From Bacteroidales bacterium UBA4331 (GTDB lineage Bacteria; Bacteroidota; Bacteroidia; Bacteroidales; Paludibacteraceae), in NCBI GenBank assembly GCA_002394395.1, contig DGTR01000020.1, positions 9,032 through 73,031 of the forward strand: a DNA stretch of 64,000 bases. Reading direction: 5' to 3'. Below, piece after piece: positions 4,558 to 51,914 of this stretch. The notes under the pieces are model-generated. The model had not been told where the DNA came from, did not search any database, and worked only from the letters and a program-made list of their open reading frames with translations. Each line of letters begins with the position of its first letter. Position 1 is the stretch's first letter. The position numbers and the translations under genes were made by a program.

Positions 4558-4766
4558 TTCTTCTTACCGCGGTATAAAATAGCAAACAACATGCATACAA
4601 ACCCAAACAACGAGATCATCGGACCTACCGTTATTCGGCGGAAAGAGAAGATGTCCGGATTATACACCTCACCAGAAGGCTCTCCGGCCATCAGGGCAAA
4701 TCCCAGAATAATGATCACAAAAGAGACTGCTATCAGGATGAGATTAAGCGTAGGTAAATGTTTCAT
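4554..4766 (-). CDS. small two-TM membrane protein (DUF3098-like)
   Basis: 70 aa, two hydrophobic helices, [11 protein letters not shown] motif; sits in the usual position downstream of ftsX in Bacteroidetes. Confidence 0.65.
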
Positions 4767-32663: not shown

Positions 32664-32711
32664 CAAAGTTACGAAAAATTTTGCATTAATGCAAAATATT
32701 TTGTACTTTTG
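32664..32711. promoter_or_regulatory. divergent promoter pair around a 20-bp perfect palindrome
   Basis: TAACTTTG (minus, 32664-32671), ATTTTGCATTAATGCAAAAT (32678-32697), TACTTTTG (plus, 32704-32711). Confidence 0.6.
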
Positions 32712-34734
32712 TGCCGTGAAACGACAAATACGAGTCATAATAATCATTTTATTCCTCCTCCCTTCCTTTCAGGGAAGGGCCGAGGATGCCCCTTTCAACC
32801 TTCATCCTTCAACGTTCACCTTAGACGAAGTCATACTGGACATCTACAATGCCGTGACGGAGTTCAGCGAAGTGGATTACGAGCAGCTGCAGACGGATCT
32901 GTACGCGCTGCATGACGCGCCGATAGACCTGAATAACACTTCGGACGAAGAGCTCTCGCAACTATATTTTCTCTCGCCGCAGCAGATAGATGATATCCTC
33001 GCCTACGCCGGCAGACACCCGTTCGAATCGCTGTATGAGTTACGGCTCATCCCGTCGCTGACGGAGTACGAGATCCGCGACCTATTGCCGTTCGTCCAAA
33101 TCAGAAATCATAAATCAGAAATCATAAATCAAAAATTGTATCCCCGCGAGGTCTTTGCGCACGCGACACATGAGGTTATCACGCGCGTGGACGCGCGTAA
33201 TATAGAAGGAGTGGAAGGTACGGACCCGATGTACGCGCAGGGACGTTACCGGTTTGATTACCAAAGGAAGGTCACGTTCGGTGCGCAGTTGAGACGGCCG
33301 GTGGGAGGTATAGCGAAGGATCTGCAATACGGCGCGTACCTGCAACTACGCGACATAACGCCCCATCTGCACACGGTGGTAGGGGGTAATTTTCAGGCCT
33401 CTTTCGGGCAGGGTTTGGTGCTCGCGCCGGTCTTTCATTCCGGCAAGAGTTCGTATGTCTCTTCGGTCGGCATGCAGCAGCAGGGCCTGCGGTATTACTC
33501 GTCGGTCGATGGCGAAGGACTGCACGGCGTAGGAGCTACCATCCGCCATGCTTTCTCATCGCAGACGAGGCTGGACGCCACTGCACTCTACTCCATGCGC
33601 CGCGCGAATGACTCCACCTGGCACCACCTGATTGGCGCCAACCTCACGCTGCGACATAAACGGCTGGAAGTCCAGCTGACAGCGATAGAGAACCTCTGGT
33701 CGGACAGTATTCACCCCTACCGCAACGCCAAGTACAACCGCCATTATTTCCGCGGCCGCAACCAGGCAGTCATAGGCGCTTCGTTCCGGTACAACCACGG
33801 CTGGTTTGATGCCTTCGGAGAGGTGGCTACAGCGCAAAATTATAAACGCTTCGAAGAAGCACTAAACGGCGAAGCCATAAACCCTATAAACGGCGAAGCC
33901 GTAAACTCGCCCCACTGGGGCCTCGGTGCTCTCATAGGCAGCCGGTTCTATCCTACGCAGGGCGTCTCGCTTGTGGCGCTGTACCGCTATTACTCGCCGT
34001 ATTTCGATAACGACTTGGGTTACGCTTTCTCCGAGACCTCGCGCATCAACGACGAGAACGGCGGGTACTTGGGTTTTGAGATCACCCGCTGGCGCAACTG
34101 GCGGATTTCTGGTTACGGGGATGTGTTCTATTTCAGCGGCTACAAGTACGGTCTGGGGGATGCAGTTAAGACACTGGGATACGATGCCATGGCAGAATTG
34201 CAGTATCATCATTCCACCATTTCATCATTCAGCGAAGCGGCTCATTCCGTCATTCCCCAATGGCGGCTTTCTCTCCGCCTGAGGGCGCGGCAGAAAGGCG
34301 ATGCCACCTACTCCACCCGTGCGCAGTTCGATTGGGCTCAGGGCAGCTGGTCGCTGCGTACCACCGCGGAAGCCAACCTGGTTAATCAATCACCAATAAC
34401 CTACGGTTTCACCATATTCCAAGACATCTCTTACTCCCTTCCTTTAAGGGAAGGGCGGGGGTTAGGCTTTCGCCTCCGGCTCCAGGGCTTCGACGCCCGC
34501 GAGTGGGCGAACCGCATCTATACCTACGAGCACGATGTGCTGTTCGCTTTTTCTATCCCTGCGACTTATGGTTTGGGCGGCAGGGCATACCTATGCCTGC
34601 GGTGGCAGATTATCCCGCAACTGACGCTCTATTTCCGCGCCTCCGAGACTGTCTATGCAAAGCAGTGGGCGACCGCTCACGATCGCCCACAAACCCGCAC
34701 AGACCTTCATCTGCTCCTTCGTGCCAAGTTATAG
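32689..34734 (+). CDS. helix-hairpin-helix N-terminal domain plus predicted beta-barrel outer-membrane protein
   Basis: 681 aa; ELSQLYFLSPQQIDDILAY and LRLIPSLTEYEIRDLLPFV HhH-like pairs; Tyr/Gly/Arg-rich alternating C-terminal part. The likely real start is GTG 32716, downstream of the -7 box at 32704-32711. Confidence 0.5.
   Translation: MQNILYFCAVKRQIRVIIIILFLLPSFQGRAEDAPFNLHPSTFTLDEVILDIYNAVTEFSEVDYEQLQTDLYALHDAPIDLNNTSDEELSQLYFLSPQQIDDILAYAGRHPFESLYELRLIPSLTEYEIRDLLPFVQIRNHKSEIINQKLYPREVFAHATHEVITRVDARNIEGVEGTDPMYAQGRYRFDYQRKVTFGAQLRRPVGGIAKDLQYGAYLQLRDITPHLHTVVGGNFQASFGQGLVLAPVFHSGKSSYVSSVGMQQQGLRYYSSVDGEGLHGVGATIRHAFSSQTRLDATALYSMRRANDSTWHHLIGANLTLRHKRLEVQLTAIENLWSDSIHPYRNAKYNRHYFRGRNQAVIGASFRYNHGWFDAFGEVATAQNYKRFEEALNGEAINPINGEAVNSPHWGLGALIGSRFYPTQGVSLVALYRYYSPYFDNDLGYAFSETSRINDENGGYLGFEITRWRNWRISGYGDVFYFSGYKYGLGDAVKTLGYDAMAELQYHHSTISSFSEAAHSVIPQWRLSLRLRARQKGDATYSTRAQFDWAQGSWSLRTTAEANLVNQSPITYGFTIFQDISYSLPLREGRGLGFRLRLQGFDAREWANRIYTYEHDVLFAFSIPATYGLGGRAYLCLRWQIIPQLTLYFRASETVYAKQWATAHDRPQTRTDLHLLLRAKL
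32760..32779. repeat. GC-rich hairpin CCCTTCC-N6-GGAAGGG, copy 1 (inside ORF 32689..34734)
   Basis: Stem 32760-32766 / 32773-32779; context CTCCCTTCCTTTCAGGGAAGGGCCGAGG. Confidence 0.9.
33099..33133. repeat. tandem heptamer AATCAKA x5 inside ORF 32689..34734
   Basis: AATCAGA, AATCATA, AATCAGA, AATCATA, AATCAAA; translated RNHKSEIINQK. Confidence 0.95.
33864..33911. repeat. tandem 24-mer x2 inside ORF 32689..34734
   Basis: AAACGGCGAAGCC is exact at 33864-33876 and 33888-33900; in-frame NGEAINPI / NGEAVNSP. Confidence 0.9.
34436..34455. repeat. GC-rich hairpin CCCTTCC-N6-GGAAGGG, copy 2 (same ORF)
   Basis: Stem 34436-34442 / 34449-34455; context CTCCCTTCCTTTAAGGGAAGGGCGGGGG. Confidence 0.9.
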
Positions 34735-49859: not shown

Positions 49860-51914
49860 TTAATCTTGCAACGTCTGGAGCTTGTTCTGCATCTCCAACA
49901 TTTCGTCCCGAAGCCGTGCAGCCATCTCAAAATCAGTAGCTTTCGCCGCTGCGAGCATCTGTTTGCGTTTGTTATCTATCGCTTTCTGCAAGGTCTGCAC
50001 ATTCATCTTCTGCCACTCGGCAGTCTTCCAACTCTCGCGGATCGCTTCTTCTACCTTCCGTTTCTCCGCCTCCGGGTCCTTGTAGAGCGATGCGAGGGCC
50101 GAAGTGTTGATCTCTTTCTTAATCGCCGTCGGCGTGATGCCATGCTCGGCGTTATACCGCATCTGGATGGTTCGGCGGCGGTTGGTCTCATCGATGGTGG
50201 CCTGCATTGCCGGCGTGATCTTATCGCCGTAGAGGATCGCCTTGCCGTTCACATGCCGCGCAGCACGACCTACCGTCTGTGTCAGACTTCGCTGGTCACG
50301 CAGGAATCCGGACTTATCCGCATCGAGAATCGCCACGAGCGACACCTCCGGCAGATCGAGTCCCTCACGCAGCAGGTTCACACCCACCAAGACGTCATAC
50401 TCGCCTTTGCGCAAGTCCTCCATGATCTTCACGCGCTCGATAGTATCTATATCCGAATGGATATAGGCAGACTTGACTCCATAGCGACGGAGGTACTCAT
50501 CCAACTCCTCCGCCATCCTTTTTGTCAGCGTCGTGACGAGGATACGTTCGTTGCGATGAATTCGGAAACGTATCTCGTCCATGAGGTCGTCCACCTGGTT
50601 CTCTGTCGGTCTCACTTCAATCTCCGGATCCAGCAGACCTGTCGGCCGGATGAGCTGGTCGATGACGATTCCTTCGCTCTTATTCAGTTCGTACTCATCC
50701 GGCGTCGCAGAAACGAAGATGGTGGCCCCTTGCCGGCCTTCCCCTTGAGGGGAAGGAGTTAATCCCACTTTCGCCTCGAACTCATCGAATTTCAGCGGTC
50801 GGTTGTCGCGCGCCGCAGGAAGCCTGAATCCGTAGTTGACAAGGTTTTCCTTACGGGCTTTATCACCTCCGTACATACCCCGGATTTGCGGAACGGTCAC
50901 ATGGCTCTCGTCGATGACAAGAAGCATATCTTTCGGGAAATAATCGAGCAGACAATACGGCGGCGTGCCTTCTTCACGGCCGTCAAAATAGCGGCTGTAG
51001 TTCTCCACTCCGGAGCAATAACCGAGTTCGTCCAGCATCTCCAGATCATACTTCACGCGCTCCTCTATACGCTTTGCGTATAACTCTTCGCCGATGGAGA
51101 TGAAATACTCAATCTGCTTCGCCAAGTCGGCTTTGATCTGTTCTTTCGCTGCAGCAATACGATCTGCGGAAGTCAAGAAGATCGTCGCCGGCGAGAGGTT
51201 ATAGGAGTCGAACTCCTCCAACACCTGTCCGGAGATCGGATCGACCGTCAGGATAGCGTCTATCTCATTGCCGAAAAACTCCACCCGCACAAGATAATCC
51301 GCGTACGCCAGCGCAATATCGACGGTATCTCCCTTGACGCGGAATCGTCCGCGCGCGAGTTCTATATCGTTACGCGTGTATTGCGCGCCCACGAGCGATT
51401 TTAATAAGGTGTCCATCTGGATCTTCTCTCCGCGACGAAGGGAAACGACATTCGCCGTGAAATCCTGCGGACTGCCCAAACCATAGATACAGCTGACCGA
51501 AGAGACGATGATCACATCTTTCCGTCCGCTCAACAACGCCGCTACGGCAGAGAGCCGCAGTCGGTCGATCTCCTCGTTGATCGAGAGGTCCTTCTCGATA
51601 TATAGATCGGTCGAAGGGATATACGCCTCGGGCTGGTAGTAGTCATAATAACTCACGAAATACTCCACCGCATTATGCGGAAAGAACGCCTTCATCTCCG
51701 AGTACAACTGCGCTGCGAGGGTCTTGTTATGGCTCATGATGAGCGTCGGCCGGTTCAGTTCCTTAATGACATTCGCTACCGTGAACGTCTTTCCCGAACC
51801 GGTCACACCCAAAAGCACCTGCGCAGGAGCACCGGCTTTGATTCCTTCGACTAAGGCCTCAATCGCTTGCGGCTGATCGCCCGTCGGCTTATATGGAGAT
51901 TCTAATTGAAACAA
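49860..51914 (-). CDS. uvrB: excinuclease ABC subunit B
   Basis: 684 aa; YKPTGDQPQAI, GVTGSGKT, helicase motifs and C-terminal UVR domain; apparent TTG start. Confidence 0.95.
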   Translation of the reverse strand: MFQLESPYKPTGDQPQAIEALVEGIKAGAPAQVLLGVTGSGKTFTVANVIKELNRPTLIMSHNKTLAAQLYSEMKAFFPHNAVEYFVSYYDYYQPEAYIPSTDLYIEKDLSINEEIDRLRLSAVAALLSGRKDVIIVSSVSCIYGLGSPQDFTANVVSLRRGEKIQMDTLLKSLVGAQYTRNDIELARGRFRVKGDTVDIALAYADYLVRVEFFGNEIDAILTVDPISGQVLEEFDSYNLSPATIFLTSADRIAAAKEQIKADLAKQIEYFISIGEELYAKRIEERVKYDLEMLDELGYCSGVENYSRYFDGREEGTPPYCLLDYFPKDMLLVIDESHVTVPQIRGMYGGDKARKENLVNYGFRLPAARDNRPLKFDEFEAKVGLTPSPQGEGRQGATIFVSATPDEYELNKSEGIVIDQLIRPTGLLDPEIEVRPTENQVDDLMDEIRFRIHRNERILVTTLTKRMAEELDEYLRRYGVKSAYIHSDIDTIERVKIMEDLRKGEYDVLVGVNLLREGLDLPEVSLVAILDADKSGFLRDQRSLTQTVGRAARHVNGKAILYGDKITPAMQATIDETNRRRTIQMRYNAEHGITPTAIKKEINTSALASLYKDPEAEKRKVEEAIRESWKTAEWQKMNVQTLQKAIDNKRKQMLAAAKATDFEMAARLRDEMLEMQNKLQTLQD
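50737..50756. repeat. GC-rich hairpin CCTTCCCC-N4-GGGGAAGG, copy 3 (inside uvrB)
   Basis: Stem 50737-50744 / 50749-50756; minus-strand context CTCCTTCCCCTCAAGGGGAAGGCCGG. Confidence 0.9.

What the first reader, a model, noticed from the sequence alone, without database searches (positions are those of the whole stretch)
32758..32782. A GC-rich hairpin element is read through in different frames at three ORF positions
CTCCCTTCCTTTCAGGGAAGGGCCG (32758-32782) and CTCCCTTCCTTTAAGGGAAGGGCGG (34434-34458) lie in one ORF. CTCCTTCCCCTCAAGGGGAAGGCCGG lies on the coding strand of uvrB (50735-50760). All three share a 7-8 bp stem (CCCTTCC/GGAAGGG). They are translated LPSFQGRA, SLPLREGRG and PSPQGEGRQ. 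The stem is read in at least two different phases, so what is conserved is the DNA or RNA palindrome, not a peptide. This behaviour resembles REP or Rickettsia-palindromic-element-type intrusions into coding sequence, which I am not aware of being described for Bacteroidales.
Basis: seen in the sequence. Interest (0 to 1): 0.65.

Follow-up and report, generated by a model that had tools for sequence, protein, structure and literature searches.

The report
Triplex-type mini-repeats inserted inside genes
The three hairpins are copies of a tiny (about 36-base) repeated DNA element, of a kind known from E. coli as BoxC or triplex motifs, that here sits in frame inside working genes (including the repair gene uvrB) and that elsewhere forms the two ends of small cassettes carrying a DUF559 nuclease gene, which may be what moves it.

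Summary
All three hairpins exist at the stated coordinates, against 0.03 expected by chance. In uvrB the unit is a 36-nt, 12-residue insertion just before helicase motif III. It is absent from alleles about 95% identical in DNA and from solved UvrB structures. The 681-aa outer-membrane-type ORF is a hotspot: its homologues carry such units at 7 or more different positions, 0 to 4 per protein. A public-genome scan found the same hairpin in rumen Bacteroidales, Chloroflexota, Planctomycetia and other phyla. It is nearly always followed by a G-rich tail that was not in the query. In Bacteroidales about two thirds of copies lie in long ORFs, in both orientations and at least 5 reading phases. The tail mirrors the purine arm, which makes the unit a class II intrastrand-triplex motif (BoxC/PIT/TM, already described). 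I found no report of two further points: the in-frame intragenic habit in Bacteroidales, and a strong link to DUF559 nuclease genes. Those genes are bracketed by inverted copies of such units, and whole cassettes sit in frame inside recG, aminoacyl-tRNA synthetase and glycosyltransferase genes. Mobilisation by DUF559 is inferred, not shown.

The parts
32757..32792 (+). Unit A: T1-type hairpin (CCCTTCC tttcag GGAAGGG, 32760-32779) with a decayed tail (CCGAGGATGCC). It is read as L-P-S-F-Q-G-R-A-E-D at the end of the predicted signal peptide of the 681-aa ORF.
   Evidence: sequence; covariance model, 36.3 bits, E 3e-7; the orthologous copy in L007 keeps the full tail CTGGGGTTAGGCC; mirror tail only 5/8; one homologue, P0169, lacks the segment.
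34433..34470 (+). Unit B: complete T1-type unit, ACT CCCTTCC tttaa GGGAAGGG cg GGGGTTAGGC TTT, read as S-L-P-L-R-E-G-R-G-L-G, one base out of phase with A.
   Evidence: 56.6 bits, E 2e-12; mirror tail 7/8; alternative alleles FDLTPYTVHHTPLS or FDFAQSGLSAKGKPIPLS at the same loop.
50724..50759 (-). Unit C in uvrB: a 36-nt indel, ACTCCTTCCCCTCAAGGGGAAGGCCGGCAAGGGGCC on the coding strand. It comprises the hairpin CCTTCCCC tcaa GGGGAAGG plus the tail ccggc AAGGGG. It encodes T-P-S-P-Q-G-E-G-R-Q-G-A immediately before helicase motif III (TIFVSATP).
   Evidence: alignment with the empty allele L001; filled and empty alleles among relatives; 12-residue gap against PDB 2fdc; mirror tail 7/8; by my reading of the sequence it is perfect in the L005-type allele, GGGGAAGG tcg GGAAGGGG.
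32689..34734 (+). Host gene 1: a 681-aa protein with a weak helix-hairpin-helix match and a probable outer-membrane beta-barrel. Its loops are a hotspot for mini-insertions.
49860..51914 (-). Host gene 2: uvrB (excinuclease ABC subunit B).

Best explanation
The three hairpins are solo copies of a family of about 36-nt repeat units. Each unit has a 7-8 nt pyrimidine arm, a 4-5 nt loop, the complementary purine arm, a 2-5 nt turn, and a G-rich tail. The tail is the mirror image of the purine arm (G opposite G, T or A opposite A). This is a class II intrastrand-triplex motif of the BoxC/PIT/TM kind. Inverted copies of the same units, tails outermost, bracket small genes for DUF559 nucleases (Vsr-like, PD-(D/E)XK fold). 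I infer that the units are the ends of a selfish DUF559 cassette, and that the many solo and doublet copies are non-autonomous derivatives. In that model the nuclease acts on the folded hairpin or triplex end, or on target DNA, to spread them, much as REP/REPIN sequences depend on RAYT transposases. When a unit lands in a coding region, only copies that add a multiple of three bases, contain no stop codon and fall in a tolerant loop survive. That filtering yields 12-13 extra residues rich in P, G, S, E and R. The following points are shown: membership in a dispersed family, multiple reading phases, presence/absence polymorphism, the mirror-tail architecture, and the enrichment of units around DUF559 genes. 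The following points are inferred: that DUF559 is the mobilising enzyme, that a triplex actually forms in the cell, and the biochemical route of insertion.
For: 1. Non-chance: 3 hairpins against 0.03 expected.
2. uvrB indel: relatives at 97-99% protein identity split into 684-aa (filled) and 672-aa (empty, VGQ) forms. At DNA level the empty allele L001 and the filled allele L006 are equally distant from the window, 103 and 105 mismatches. Filled and empty alleles interleave on the UvrB tree.
3. Host gene 1: unit-encoded peptides occur at 7 or more positions, 0-4 per protein, among 120 homologues. DNA shows T1 (CCCTTCC..GGGGTTAGGC) at 4 sites and T2 (CCCCTCC..GGGGGTAGG) at 2 sites.
Of 131 matches, 101 have the unqueried tail. 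Stem type predicts tail type: T1 with TTAGG 50 against GTAGG 1; T2 with GTAGG or GTGGG 42 against TTAGG 0.
5. In Bacteroidales about 30 of 46 copies lie in open frames of 150 or more codons, on both strands and in at least 5 phases.
6. DUF559 link: all 3 DUF559 genes in the hairpin-selected loci lie within 60 nt of a unit. In 80 DUF559 loci fetched independently from metagenomes, a perfect hairpin of 6 bp or more lies within 150 nt in 62 loci and on both sides in 43. Density is 4.90 per kb near the gene against 0.23 per kb further away. The arrangement is tail-hairpin-gene-hairpin-tail.
7. T1 is the right end of the rumen Bacteroidales cassette in 5 different host genes.
8. Mirror tail: 74 of 104 informative units are perfect mirrors against 10 perfect direct matches. 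Permuted tails never reach the observed mean (0 of 1000).
9. The DUF559 profile matches PDB 3r3p, the homing endonuclease I-Bth0305I (E 1e-7), and 3hrl (E 1e-35).
10. E. coli K-12 ycjD (DUF559) is followed by a decayed unit, a duplicated 3' gene fragment and a full BoxC.
Against: No DUF559 gene lies in the 64-kb window, and only 3 of 119 hairpin-selected loci hold one. Solo copies therefore vastly outnumber any autonomous copy, and no activity in trans has been shown. The uvrB junction is not a clean insertion: GGG CAG in the empty allele corresponds to GGA TTA in filled alleles, and there is no target-site duplication. At site B the unit replaces a segment rather than adding to one. Filled uvrB alleles carry their own flanking residues (V...TIF against T...TIY) into other clades. 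Homologous recombination between strains therefore explains at least part of the patchy distribution. Solo copies carry only one tail, which is not what simple excision of a cassette would leave. Triplex formation by TM_ECO was shown in vitro, but DMS footprinting did not support it in vivo (PMC4666352).
Confidence: 0.6

Rival explanations
1. The units are an independent repeat family that spreads by some other route, or hardly at all. DUF559 cassettes are a separate homing-type element that preferentially inserts into or next to such units, for example into the spacer of inverted doublets. The association would then reflect target choice, not mobilisation of the units.
For: Gene-less inverted doublets with spacers of about 60 nt exist in Chloroflexota. 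The DUF559 family is related to a homing endonuclease. Solo copies greatly outnumber cassettes. Cassettes sometimes carry extra nested units.
Against: In five different host genes the rumen cassette has the same T1 junction directly after the DUF559 C-terminus, and those host genes do not otherwise carry a unit there. Hairpin and tail sequence differs between DUF559 lineages as expected for cognate ends.
Confidence: 0.2
2. They are classical REP elements mobilised by a RAYT (Y1/HUH tyrosine transposase), like the GTAG/CGTC REPs already reported inside uvrA, uvrB and other genes.
For: Intragenic REPs, including copies in uvrB, uvrA and pseudouridine synthase genes, are documented (PMC3733652). 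The T2 tail contains GTAG. Inverted doublets resemble REPINs.
Against: In GTAG REPs the tetranucleotide sits at one end, directly abutting the stem. Here TAGG or GTAG lies 3' of the hairpin, 6-8 nt away, inside a mirror tail, and in T1 it reads TTAG. The gene found next to the units is DUF559, not a transposase. That survey reported GTAG REPs in no Bacteroidetes. A direct search for Y1 transposase genes was not done.
Confidence: 0.08
3. There is no mobility. The sequences are locally evolved hairpins (template-switch or quasipalindrome mutations) or selected peptide linkers that merely look alike.
For: The hairpin region of uvrB is unusually variable between near-identical alleles (SPQ, APS, APSW). 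Only the window allele is a perfect palindrome, which could reflect quasipalindrome correction.
Against: Near-identical units of 31-36 nt, with a tail that covaries with the stem, recur at unrelated loci, in several phyla, in both orientations and in several frames. The chance expectation in the window is 0.03.
Confidence: 0.04
4. The units are host-beneficial signals (recombination hotspots, DNA-uptake-like sequences, replication or transcription pause sites) kept by selection, and their presence in genes is functional.
For: Sites bearing TM_ECO are more rearranged between E. coli strains (PMC4666352). Host gene 1 is a surface-type protein whose loops vary strongly.
Against: The same sequence occurs across distant phyla, which argues against a species-specific signal. 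Earlier work found no promoter, terminator or conjugation effect for PIT elements (as summarised in PMC4666352). The decayed copies (unit A, most uvrB alleles) show no purifying selection on the structure.
Confidence: 0.08

Closest known systems
BoxC / PIT elements / intrastrand triplex motifs (TM, TM_ECO). Holder et al. 2015 NAR (PMC4666352); earlier Hoyne...Maher 2000 and the E. coli BoxC papers, as cited there.
   Same: The architecture is identical: a 5' pyrimidine domain, loop, purine domain, a loop of about 3 nt, then a reverse-Hoogsteen G/T/A domain (class II). Compare TM_ECO, CCCTCNCCC N3-6 GGGNGAGGG N3 GGGNGAGGG, with the window's CCCTTCC TTTAA GGGAAGGG CG GGGGTTAGG. Both are about 36 nt, multicopy, found in many phyla, and associated with variable loci.
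   Different: TM_ECO was reported as always intergenic and as not associated with mobile elements. Here the copies are intragenic and in frame, and the units bracket DUF559 nuclease genes. That includes E. coli ycjD itself, which that paper does not mention.
Intragenic REPs and Rickettsia palindromic elements (RPE). Di Nocera et al. 2013 (PMC3733652); Ogata et al. 2000 (from my own knowledge).
   Same: Both are short palindromic repeats inserted in frame in functional genes, adding a dozen or more residues. DNA-repair genes (uvrA, uvrB, recBCD) and pseudouridine synthase genes are among the hosts. Presence and absence vary between relatives.
   Different: The units here have a different sequence logic: no terminal GTAG or CGTC tag abutting the stem, and a mirror-repeat tail. 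RPE-1 is about 100-150 bp. The associated gene is DUF559 rather than a RAYT. GTAG REPs were not reported in Bacteroidetes.
REP/REPIN-RAYT systems (Bertels & Rainey 2011, PMC3116915; Nunvar 2010 from my own knowledge).
   Same: In both, one or a few protein genes are flanked by the same short structured repeats that occur as many solo copies or inverted doublets across the genome. Repeat sequence co-varies with the lineage of the protein.
   Different: The protein fold and chemistry differ: a PD-(D/E)XK Vsr-like nuclease against an HUH Y1 transposase. Nothing is known about DUF559 activity on these repeats.
Vsr-like (EDxHD) homing endonucleases such as I-Bth0305I (PDB 3r3p), and the 'fractured genes' of Dassa et al. 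2009 (PMC2677866).
   Same: The nuclease family is related (profile match E 1e-7). Both are selfish genes lodged within conserved host genes.
   Different: Those endonucleases sit in group I introns or between split-intein halves, which repair the host product. The DUF559 cassettes here have no intron or intein and are simply translated through.
Small dispersed repeats (SDR) of cyanobacteria (Elhai et al. 2008; from my own knowledge, not held in the library searched).
   Same: Both are very small hairpin repeats (about 21-27 nt for SDR) judged mobile from presence/absence at orthologous sites, including sites inside genes.
   Different: The sequence families differ. No triplex-type tail or nuclease partner has been described for SDR.

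Membership tests
Class II intrastrand triplex motif (BoxC/PIT/TM) | 5' homopyrimidine domain and complementary homopurine domain forming a hairpin | tested here: met
   A and B: CCCTTCC/GGAAGGG. C: CCTTCCCC/GGGGAAGG.
Class II intrastrand triplex motif (BoxC/PIT/TM) | 3' reverse-Hoogsteen domain: a G/T/A-rich mirror image of the purine domain after a short loop | tested here: met
   B scores 7/8 and C scores 7/8 on the coding strand (by my reading of the sequence the mirror is perfect in the L005-type uvrB allele); A is decayed at 5/8. Family-wide, 74 of 104 units are perfect mirrors against 10 direct matches, and 0 of 1000 permutations reach the observed score.
Class II intrastrand triplex motif (BoxC/PIT/TM) | Actual folding into a triple helix | not testable with these tools
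   Shown in vitro for TM_ECO by CD and NMR, but not supported in vivo (PMC4666352). The ViennaRNA energy model has no triplex term.
Class II intrastrand triplex motif (BoxC/PIT/TM) | Multicopy and conserved across genomes | tested here: met
GTAG/CGTC REP superfamilies | Terminal GTAG or CGTC tetranucleotide directly abutting the stem | tested here: not met
   There is no such tag 5' of the stem (the flank is ..YCT). TAGG or GTAG lies 6-8 nt 3' of the stem, within the tail, and reads TTAG in T1.
GTAG/CGTC REP superfamilies | Association with RAYT (Y1 transposase) genes | not tested
   No search with a Y1_Tnp profile was run. The only gene family seen adjacent to units was DUF559.
Rickettsia palindromic elements (RPE) | Sequence similarity to RPE families; size about 100-150 bp (RPE-1) | tested here: not met
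   The unit is 36 nt. Rfam at gathering threshold gave no hit in the window. Only the behaviour (in-frame insertion) is shared.
Ends of DUF559 nuclease cassettes (proposed here) | The same unit type found as inverted copies bracketing a DUF559 ORF, tails outward | tested here: met
   T1-type units bracket DUF559 in L018 and L147 (rumen Bacteroidales), L032 (T1 left, T2 right) and L089. Not shown for the uvrB subtype.
Ends of DUF559 nuclease cassettes (proposed here) | A cognate DUF559 gene present in the same genome as the solo copies | tested here: inconclusive
   None is present in the 64-kb window or in L001-L009. The rest of the source genome was not available.
Ends of DUF559 nuclease cassettes (proposed here) | Nuclease acts on the unit or on its target | not testable with these tools
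   Needs biochemistry.

The most novel reading that the evidence does not exclude
BoxC/PIT/TM 'triplex repeats', known for 30 years without an explanation for their spread, would be the structured ends and orphan derivatives of a previously unrecognised, phylum-spanning class of selfish elements built around a DUF559 (Vsr-like) nuclease. These elements would colonise even essential genes (recG, ileS, valS, leuS, uvrB) by being translated through in frame, without any intron or intein. In rumen Bacteroidales this would be a major source of protein length variation.
Probability: 0.45. Interest if true: 0.85.

Novelty: new variant of a known kind. Interest (0 to 1): 0.68.

Why it matters
The work matters for four reasons.

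1. It gives a concrete, testable candidate for what moves BoxC/PIT/TM repeats. Earlier work characterised their structure but found no link to mobile elements. It also assigns a likely biological role to DUF559, a very widespread domain of unknown function.

2. It shows that in uncultured rumen and gut Bacteroidales small DNA parasites are tolerated inside housekeeping and surface-protein genes. They create strain-level protein length polymorphism: a 12-residue difference in UvrB and 585-710 residues in one outer-membrane-type protein. This affects orthologue calling, strain typing and MAG assembly, since many cassette copies sit on very short contigs.

3. Whole nuclease cassettes read through in frame within RecG and aminoacyl-tRNA synthetases would be a way of invading essential genes different from introns and inteins.

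4. The mirror-tail covariation is a natural data set for testing whether purine-motif triplexes have a biological role.

Tried and rejected
- Rfam at gathering threshold and tRNA scans of the window found nothing.
- Extended flank homology between the three copies was tested and rejected: similarity stops at about 36 nt.
- A search for further copies of the uvrB subtype in 1.05 Mb of fetched loci found only uvrB alleles. Dispersal of that exact subtype is therefore not shown.
- The covariance model R1 is narrow, because it was built from pattern-selected copies, and it does not detect the uvrB unit.
- An integron attC reading (GTTAGGC fits the GTTRRRY core) was considered and dropped. T2 has GGTAGGC, and no inverse core site exists.
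- An IS200/IS605-style target (TTAC) was considered for site B and uvrB, but flanks of other copies share only ..CT.
- A G-quadruplex reading was considered. The mirror covariation of the non-G positions fits a triplex instead.
- I sought a clean empty site for the E. coli ycjD cassette in O157:H7. The whole sap-ycjD side is replaced there, so no junction could be read.
- Literature searches for a link between DUF559 and repeats found none. The library lacks most subscription journals.
- Structure prediction and fold search were not used.
Full report
**1. Observation**

The three quoted sequences are at the stated coordinates.
- Unit A: 32760-32779, CCCTTCC tttcag GGAAGGG.
- Unit B: 34436-34455, CCCTTCC tttaag GGAAGGG.
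- Both lie in one ORF, 32689-34734(+), 681 aa. The ORF has a weak helix-hairpin-helix match and homologues named 'helix-hairpin-helix domain-containing protein [Paludibacteraceae]'.
- Unit C: 50737-50756, CCTTCCCC ttga GGGGAAGG. It lies in uvrB, 49860-51914(-).

A scan for all perfect hairpins shows that these three are the only pyrimidine-arm/purine-arm hairpins of 7 bp or more in the window. Dinucleotide-preserving shuffles give a mean of 0.03, and none of 200 shuffles reaches 3. Rfam and tRNA scans find nothing in the window.

**2. The uvrB copy is a real, polymorphic insertion**

UvrB proteins of relatives at 97-99% protein identity fall into two forms.
- The 684-aa form reads VGLTP[AS]P[SQ][GW]EGRQGA before TIFVSATP.
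- The 672-aa form reads only VGQ at that point.

Most other Paludibacteraceae UvrB proteins read TGQ. Three other lineages at about 90% identity carry variants of the insert: ..APSGEGREGAS, ..DPAGEGRERAS and ..APEGEGREGAS.

At DNA level the difference is a 36-nt block. It is ACTCCTTCCCCTCAAGGGGAAGGCCGGCAAGGGGCC on the coding strand, window 50724-50759. A changed codon sits at the left junction: GGG CAG in the empty allele and GGA TTA in the filled ones. The empty allele L001 and the filled allele L006 are equally distant from the window, at 103 and 105 mismatches over about 2 kb. There is no cluster of substitutions around the indel.

Against the solved Bacillus caldotenax UvrB structure (2fdc) the window protein has a 12-residue insertion exactly between ..FEQKIN and QIIYVSATP, just before helicase motif III.

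On a UvrB tree with the insert masked, filled and empty alleles interleave. One filled allele (P0028) sits inside an otherwise empty clade but carries the V...TIF flanks typical of filled alleles. Recombination between strains therefore spreads the insert, and this accounts for part of its patchy distribution. The hairpin is perfect only in the window allele. Most alleles have one or two stem mismatches, as expected for an old, decaying copy.

**3. The 681-aa ORF is a hotspot**

Its 120 closest homologues (76-96% identity) range from 585 to 710 residues. Unit-encoded peptides occur at seven or more positions, with 0-4 per protein:
- LPSFQGRA[EG] near residue 23
- SLPFREGSG near residue 140
- HPSLQGGDG near residue 375
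- HPSFQGGDG near residue 500
- SLPFREGSG near residue 560
- SLPLREGRG near residue 580
- YPSFQGGDG near the C-terminus

DNA from three relatives (L007-L009) shows two unit types of identical geometry:
- T1: (A)CT CCCTTCC TTTWA GGGAAGGG YSG GGGTTAGGC
- T2: CCCCTCC TTTCA GGGAGGGG AT GGGGGTAGG

The orthologue of unit A in L007 still has the complete tail (CTGGGGTTAGGCC), while the window's copy has lost it. At site B the unit alternates with unrelated loop sequences rather than with a simple gap.

**4. A dispersed family across phyla**

I scanned one genome per species in the public collection with the hairpin alone (CCCYTCCTTTNAGGGARGGG). Carriers include:
- many rumen and gut Paludibacteraceae, Bacteroidales and Prevotella MAGs;
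- Chloroflexota, where single MAGs contribute 9-12 stretches;
- Planctomycetia, Zixibacteria and others.

Of 131 matches, 101 are followed by a G-rich tail that was not part of the query. Stem type predicts tail type. T1 stems pair with TTAGG tails 50 times and with GTAGG once. T2 stems pair with GTAGG or GTGGG 42 times and never with TTAGG.

In Bacteroidales loci about 30 of 46 copies lie inside open frames of 150 or more codons. Forward reads are ..[ST][LP]PFREG.G[LV]G (12 copies)..LPSFQG..G.RL (2) and PLLLGRGGG (1). Reverse reads are KP[TN]P.PSLKG[GR]E (14) and PQPLPERRGE (1).

The remaining frames contain stop codons created by the loop or by TAG in the tail (my reading of the consensus). 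The observed phases are therefore those that selection would let through.

**5. Architecture: a class II intrastrand triplex motif**

The tail is the mirror image of the purine arm, with G opposite G and T or A opposite A. Examples:
- T1: arm 3'-GGGAAGGG, tail 5'-GGGTTAGG
- T2: arm 3'-GGGGAGGG, tail 5'-GGGGTAGG
- Other lineages: GGGGGAG with GTGGGGG, GGAGAGGGG with GGGGTGAGG, and GGAGAAGGG with GGGATGAGG

Among 104 informative units (asymmetric purine arm containing A), the tail is a perfect mirror in 74 and a perfect direct match in 10. The mean mirror score is 0.946 against 0.820 ± 0.008 for permuted tails, and no permutation of 1000 reaches the observed value.

This is the geometry of a purine-motif (reverse-Hoogsteen) intramolecular triplex. 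It is exactly the 'class II' motif described as BoxC, PIT elements and TM in E. coli and more than 260 other genomes. The TM_ECO consensus is CCCTCNCCC N3-6 GGGNGAGGG N3 GGGNGAGGG. It forms a triplex in vitro, but DMS footprinting did not support one in vivo. It was reported as 'always intergenic', and no association with mobile elements was found (PMC4666352).

In the window, unit B scores 7/8 for the mirror tail, the uvrB unit scores 7/8 on the coding strand, and unit A is decayed at 5/8. By my reading of the sequence, the L005-type uvrB allele has a perfect mirror tail, GGGGAAGG tcg GGAAGGGG.

**6. Link to DUF559 nuclease genes**

In a Chloroflexota locus (L032) a 124-aa ORF matches Pfam DUF559 (E 1e-32). 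An inverted T1 lies on its left and a direct T2 on its right, with tails outward. A profile search of all hairpin-selected loci found three DUF559 genes. All three lie within 60 nt of a unit.

One of the three is in a Paludibacteraceae MAG (L018). There a GT2 glycosyltransferase ORF carries, in frame, T1(-), a T2-like unit, the DUF559 domain, T1(+) and another T2-like unit.

As an independent test I fetched 80 DUF559 loci from metagenomes, using a DUF559 alignment as the query.
- A perfect pyrimidine/purine hairpin of 6 bp or more lies within 150 nt of the domain in 62 of 80 loci.
- Hairpins lie on both sides of the domain in 43 of 80 loci.
- Hairpin density is 4.90 per kb near the domain against 0.23 per kb beyond 250 nt.
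- The arrangement is uniformly [C-rich tail][hairpin]-DUF559-[hairpin][G-rich tail].
- The hairpin sequences differ between DUF559 lineages.

The rumen Bacteroidales lineage uses T1. The junction ...TL-PS[LF][KQ]GR.G[DEN]RL follows the nuclease C-terminus in five different host genes.

Whole cassettes are read through in frame in several host genes:
- RecG, between the DEAD and Helicase_C domains
- IleRS, ValRS and LeuRS
- UDP-GlcNAc 2-epimerase
- GT2 glycosyltransferase

T1 and T2 are probably the two ends of one element. L032 has T1-gene-T2, and gene-less Chloroflexota doublets have T2(-), about 60 nt of spacer, then T1(+).

The DUF559 profile matches PDB 3hrl (E 1e-35) and the homing endonuclease I-Bth0305I, 3r3p (E 1e-7).

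In E. coli K-12 the DUF559 gene ycjD is followed by three features: a decayed unit overlapping its stop codon, a duplicated 3' gene fragment with a tail remnant, and a complete BoxC about 170 nt downstream. The ycjD region is at least 80% covered in 3378 of 5426 complete E. coli genomes.

A survey of programmed inversions lists 'DUF559 domain-containing protein' as enriched among its predicted targets, with an odds ratio of 14 (PMC9881135). This is an independent sign of flanking inverted repeats. Only 25 papers in the library mention DUF559, and none that I read links it to repeats.

**7. Interpretation and limits**

Shown:
- The three hairpins are copies, of different ages, of a dispersed family of triplex-motif units.
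- They are inserted in frame.
- They are polymorphic between close relatives.
- The same units form the inverted ends of DUF559 cassettes.

Inferred:
- DUF559 mobilises the units, by analogy with REP/RAYT systems or with homing endonucleases.
- The folded hairpin or triplex is what the nuclease recognises.

Points against the inference, or still open:
- There is no DUF559 gene in the window.
- Solo copies far outnumber cassettes and carry only one tail.
- The junctions are not clean and show no target duplication.
- Recombination clearly contributes to the distribution.
- Per-genome copy numbers could not be measured.

As a rough extrapolation of mine, the roughly 170 kb of Paludibacteraceae sequence fetched without regard to the motif (the window plus L001-L006) holds about eight triplex-type units. 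That is about one per 20 kb.

The alternative that the cassettes merely target pre-existing units remains open.

**8. Comparison with known families, and verdict**

- The unit is a member of the BoxC/PIT/TM class: the defining features that could be tested were met.
- It is not a GTAG/CGTC REP, because the tag feature is not met.
- It is not an RPE.
- Its behaviour inside genes matches intragenic REPs and RPEs, which are already known in uvrA and uvrB (PMC3733652).

Two things appear new relative to the literature I could search. The first is the in-frame intragenic habit in Bacteroidales. The second, more important, is the DUF559 association, which offers a mechanism for a long-unexplained repeat class.

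Novelty: new variant of a known kind. Interest: 0.68.

Noticed in passing
window 34207-34260: A second kind of mini-cassette sits in the same ORF. The peptide HHSTISSFSEAAHSVIPQ is absent from many homologues (which read SRHA instead). The same STISSFSEAAHS segment occurs at a different position (near alignment column 590) in other homologues such as P0152. Its DNA contains the GCGAAGC mini-hairpin motif.
   Followed up: partly
window 33841-33915: The YKRFEEALNGEAINPINGEAVNSPH loop is built from two direct repeats of ATAAACGGCGAAGCC(A/G)TAAAC, each with a GGC-GAA-GCC mini-hairpin. The segment is missing or shortened in many homologues, and a related REAINGNAINREA segment occurs at another site in P0153.
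   Followed up: partly
window 33103-33135: An A-rich repeat, AAATCA(G/T)AAATCATAAATCA, encodes RNHKSEIINQK. In some relatives this loop is replaced by a T1 unit (L007, L008) or by other variants.
   Followed up: partly
L018 about 4580-4620 and homologues of the 681-aa ORF (P0136 etc.): The peptide TPYT[VL]HHTP appears both in alleles of site B of the outer-membrane-type ORF (DLTPYTVHHTPLS) and in an unrelated GT2 glycosyltransferase (STPYTLHHTPS). This suggests yet another short mobile coding insert in these genomes.
   Followed up: no
L004 15368-15440; L002 14357-14390; L004 13975-14005: In relatives, triplex-type units also sit in frame in a pseudouridine synthase gene and at two different positions of the pnuC (NMN transporter) gene. 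The pseudouridine synthase carries an inverted doublet and is 324 aa, against 309 aa in L002.
   Followed up: partly
L140 about 2520-2640: A ValRS gene that carries a full DUF559 cassette also has a second pair of units (APLNPPGGGT ... HPSLGGVGGGF) bracketing about 30 residues further downstream. This may be a gene-less doublet or a native segment captured between two units.
   Followed up: no
L209 7200-7420 (E. coli K-12, ycjD-fabI spacer): Downstream of ycjD there is a partial duplication of the gene's last 50 nt or so (GGAGACGGTGCTGGAGAATATTC...CTGAACCG), followed by a tail remnant (GGGTTAGGGG) and then a complete BoxC. In O157:H7 the whole ycjD-sap side is replaced by a TetR/RND efflux locus, and homology resumes about 50 nt beyond the BoxC position.
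   Followed up: partly
(P0241-P0353, L129-L208): Many DUF559 homologues lie on very short contigs (0.5-2 kb), as expected if the cassettes are repeated and break metagenome assemblies. This may bias MAG gene content and ORF calls around them.
   Followed up: no
window 50737-50756 compared with L006, L002, L004, L005: Within otherwise 99%-identical UvrB alleles the hairpin region differs at 3 of 20 bases, and only the window allele is a perfect palindrome. This could reflect elevated mutation or quasipalindrome correction at the hairpin.
   Followed up: no
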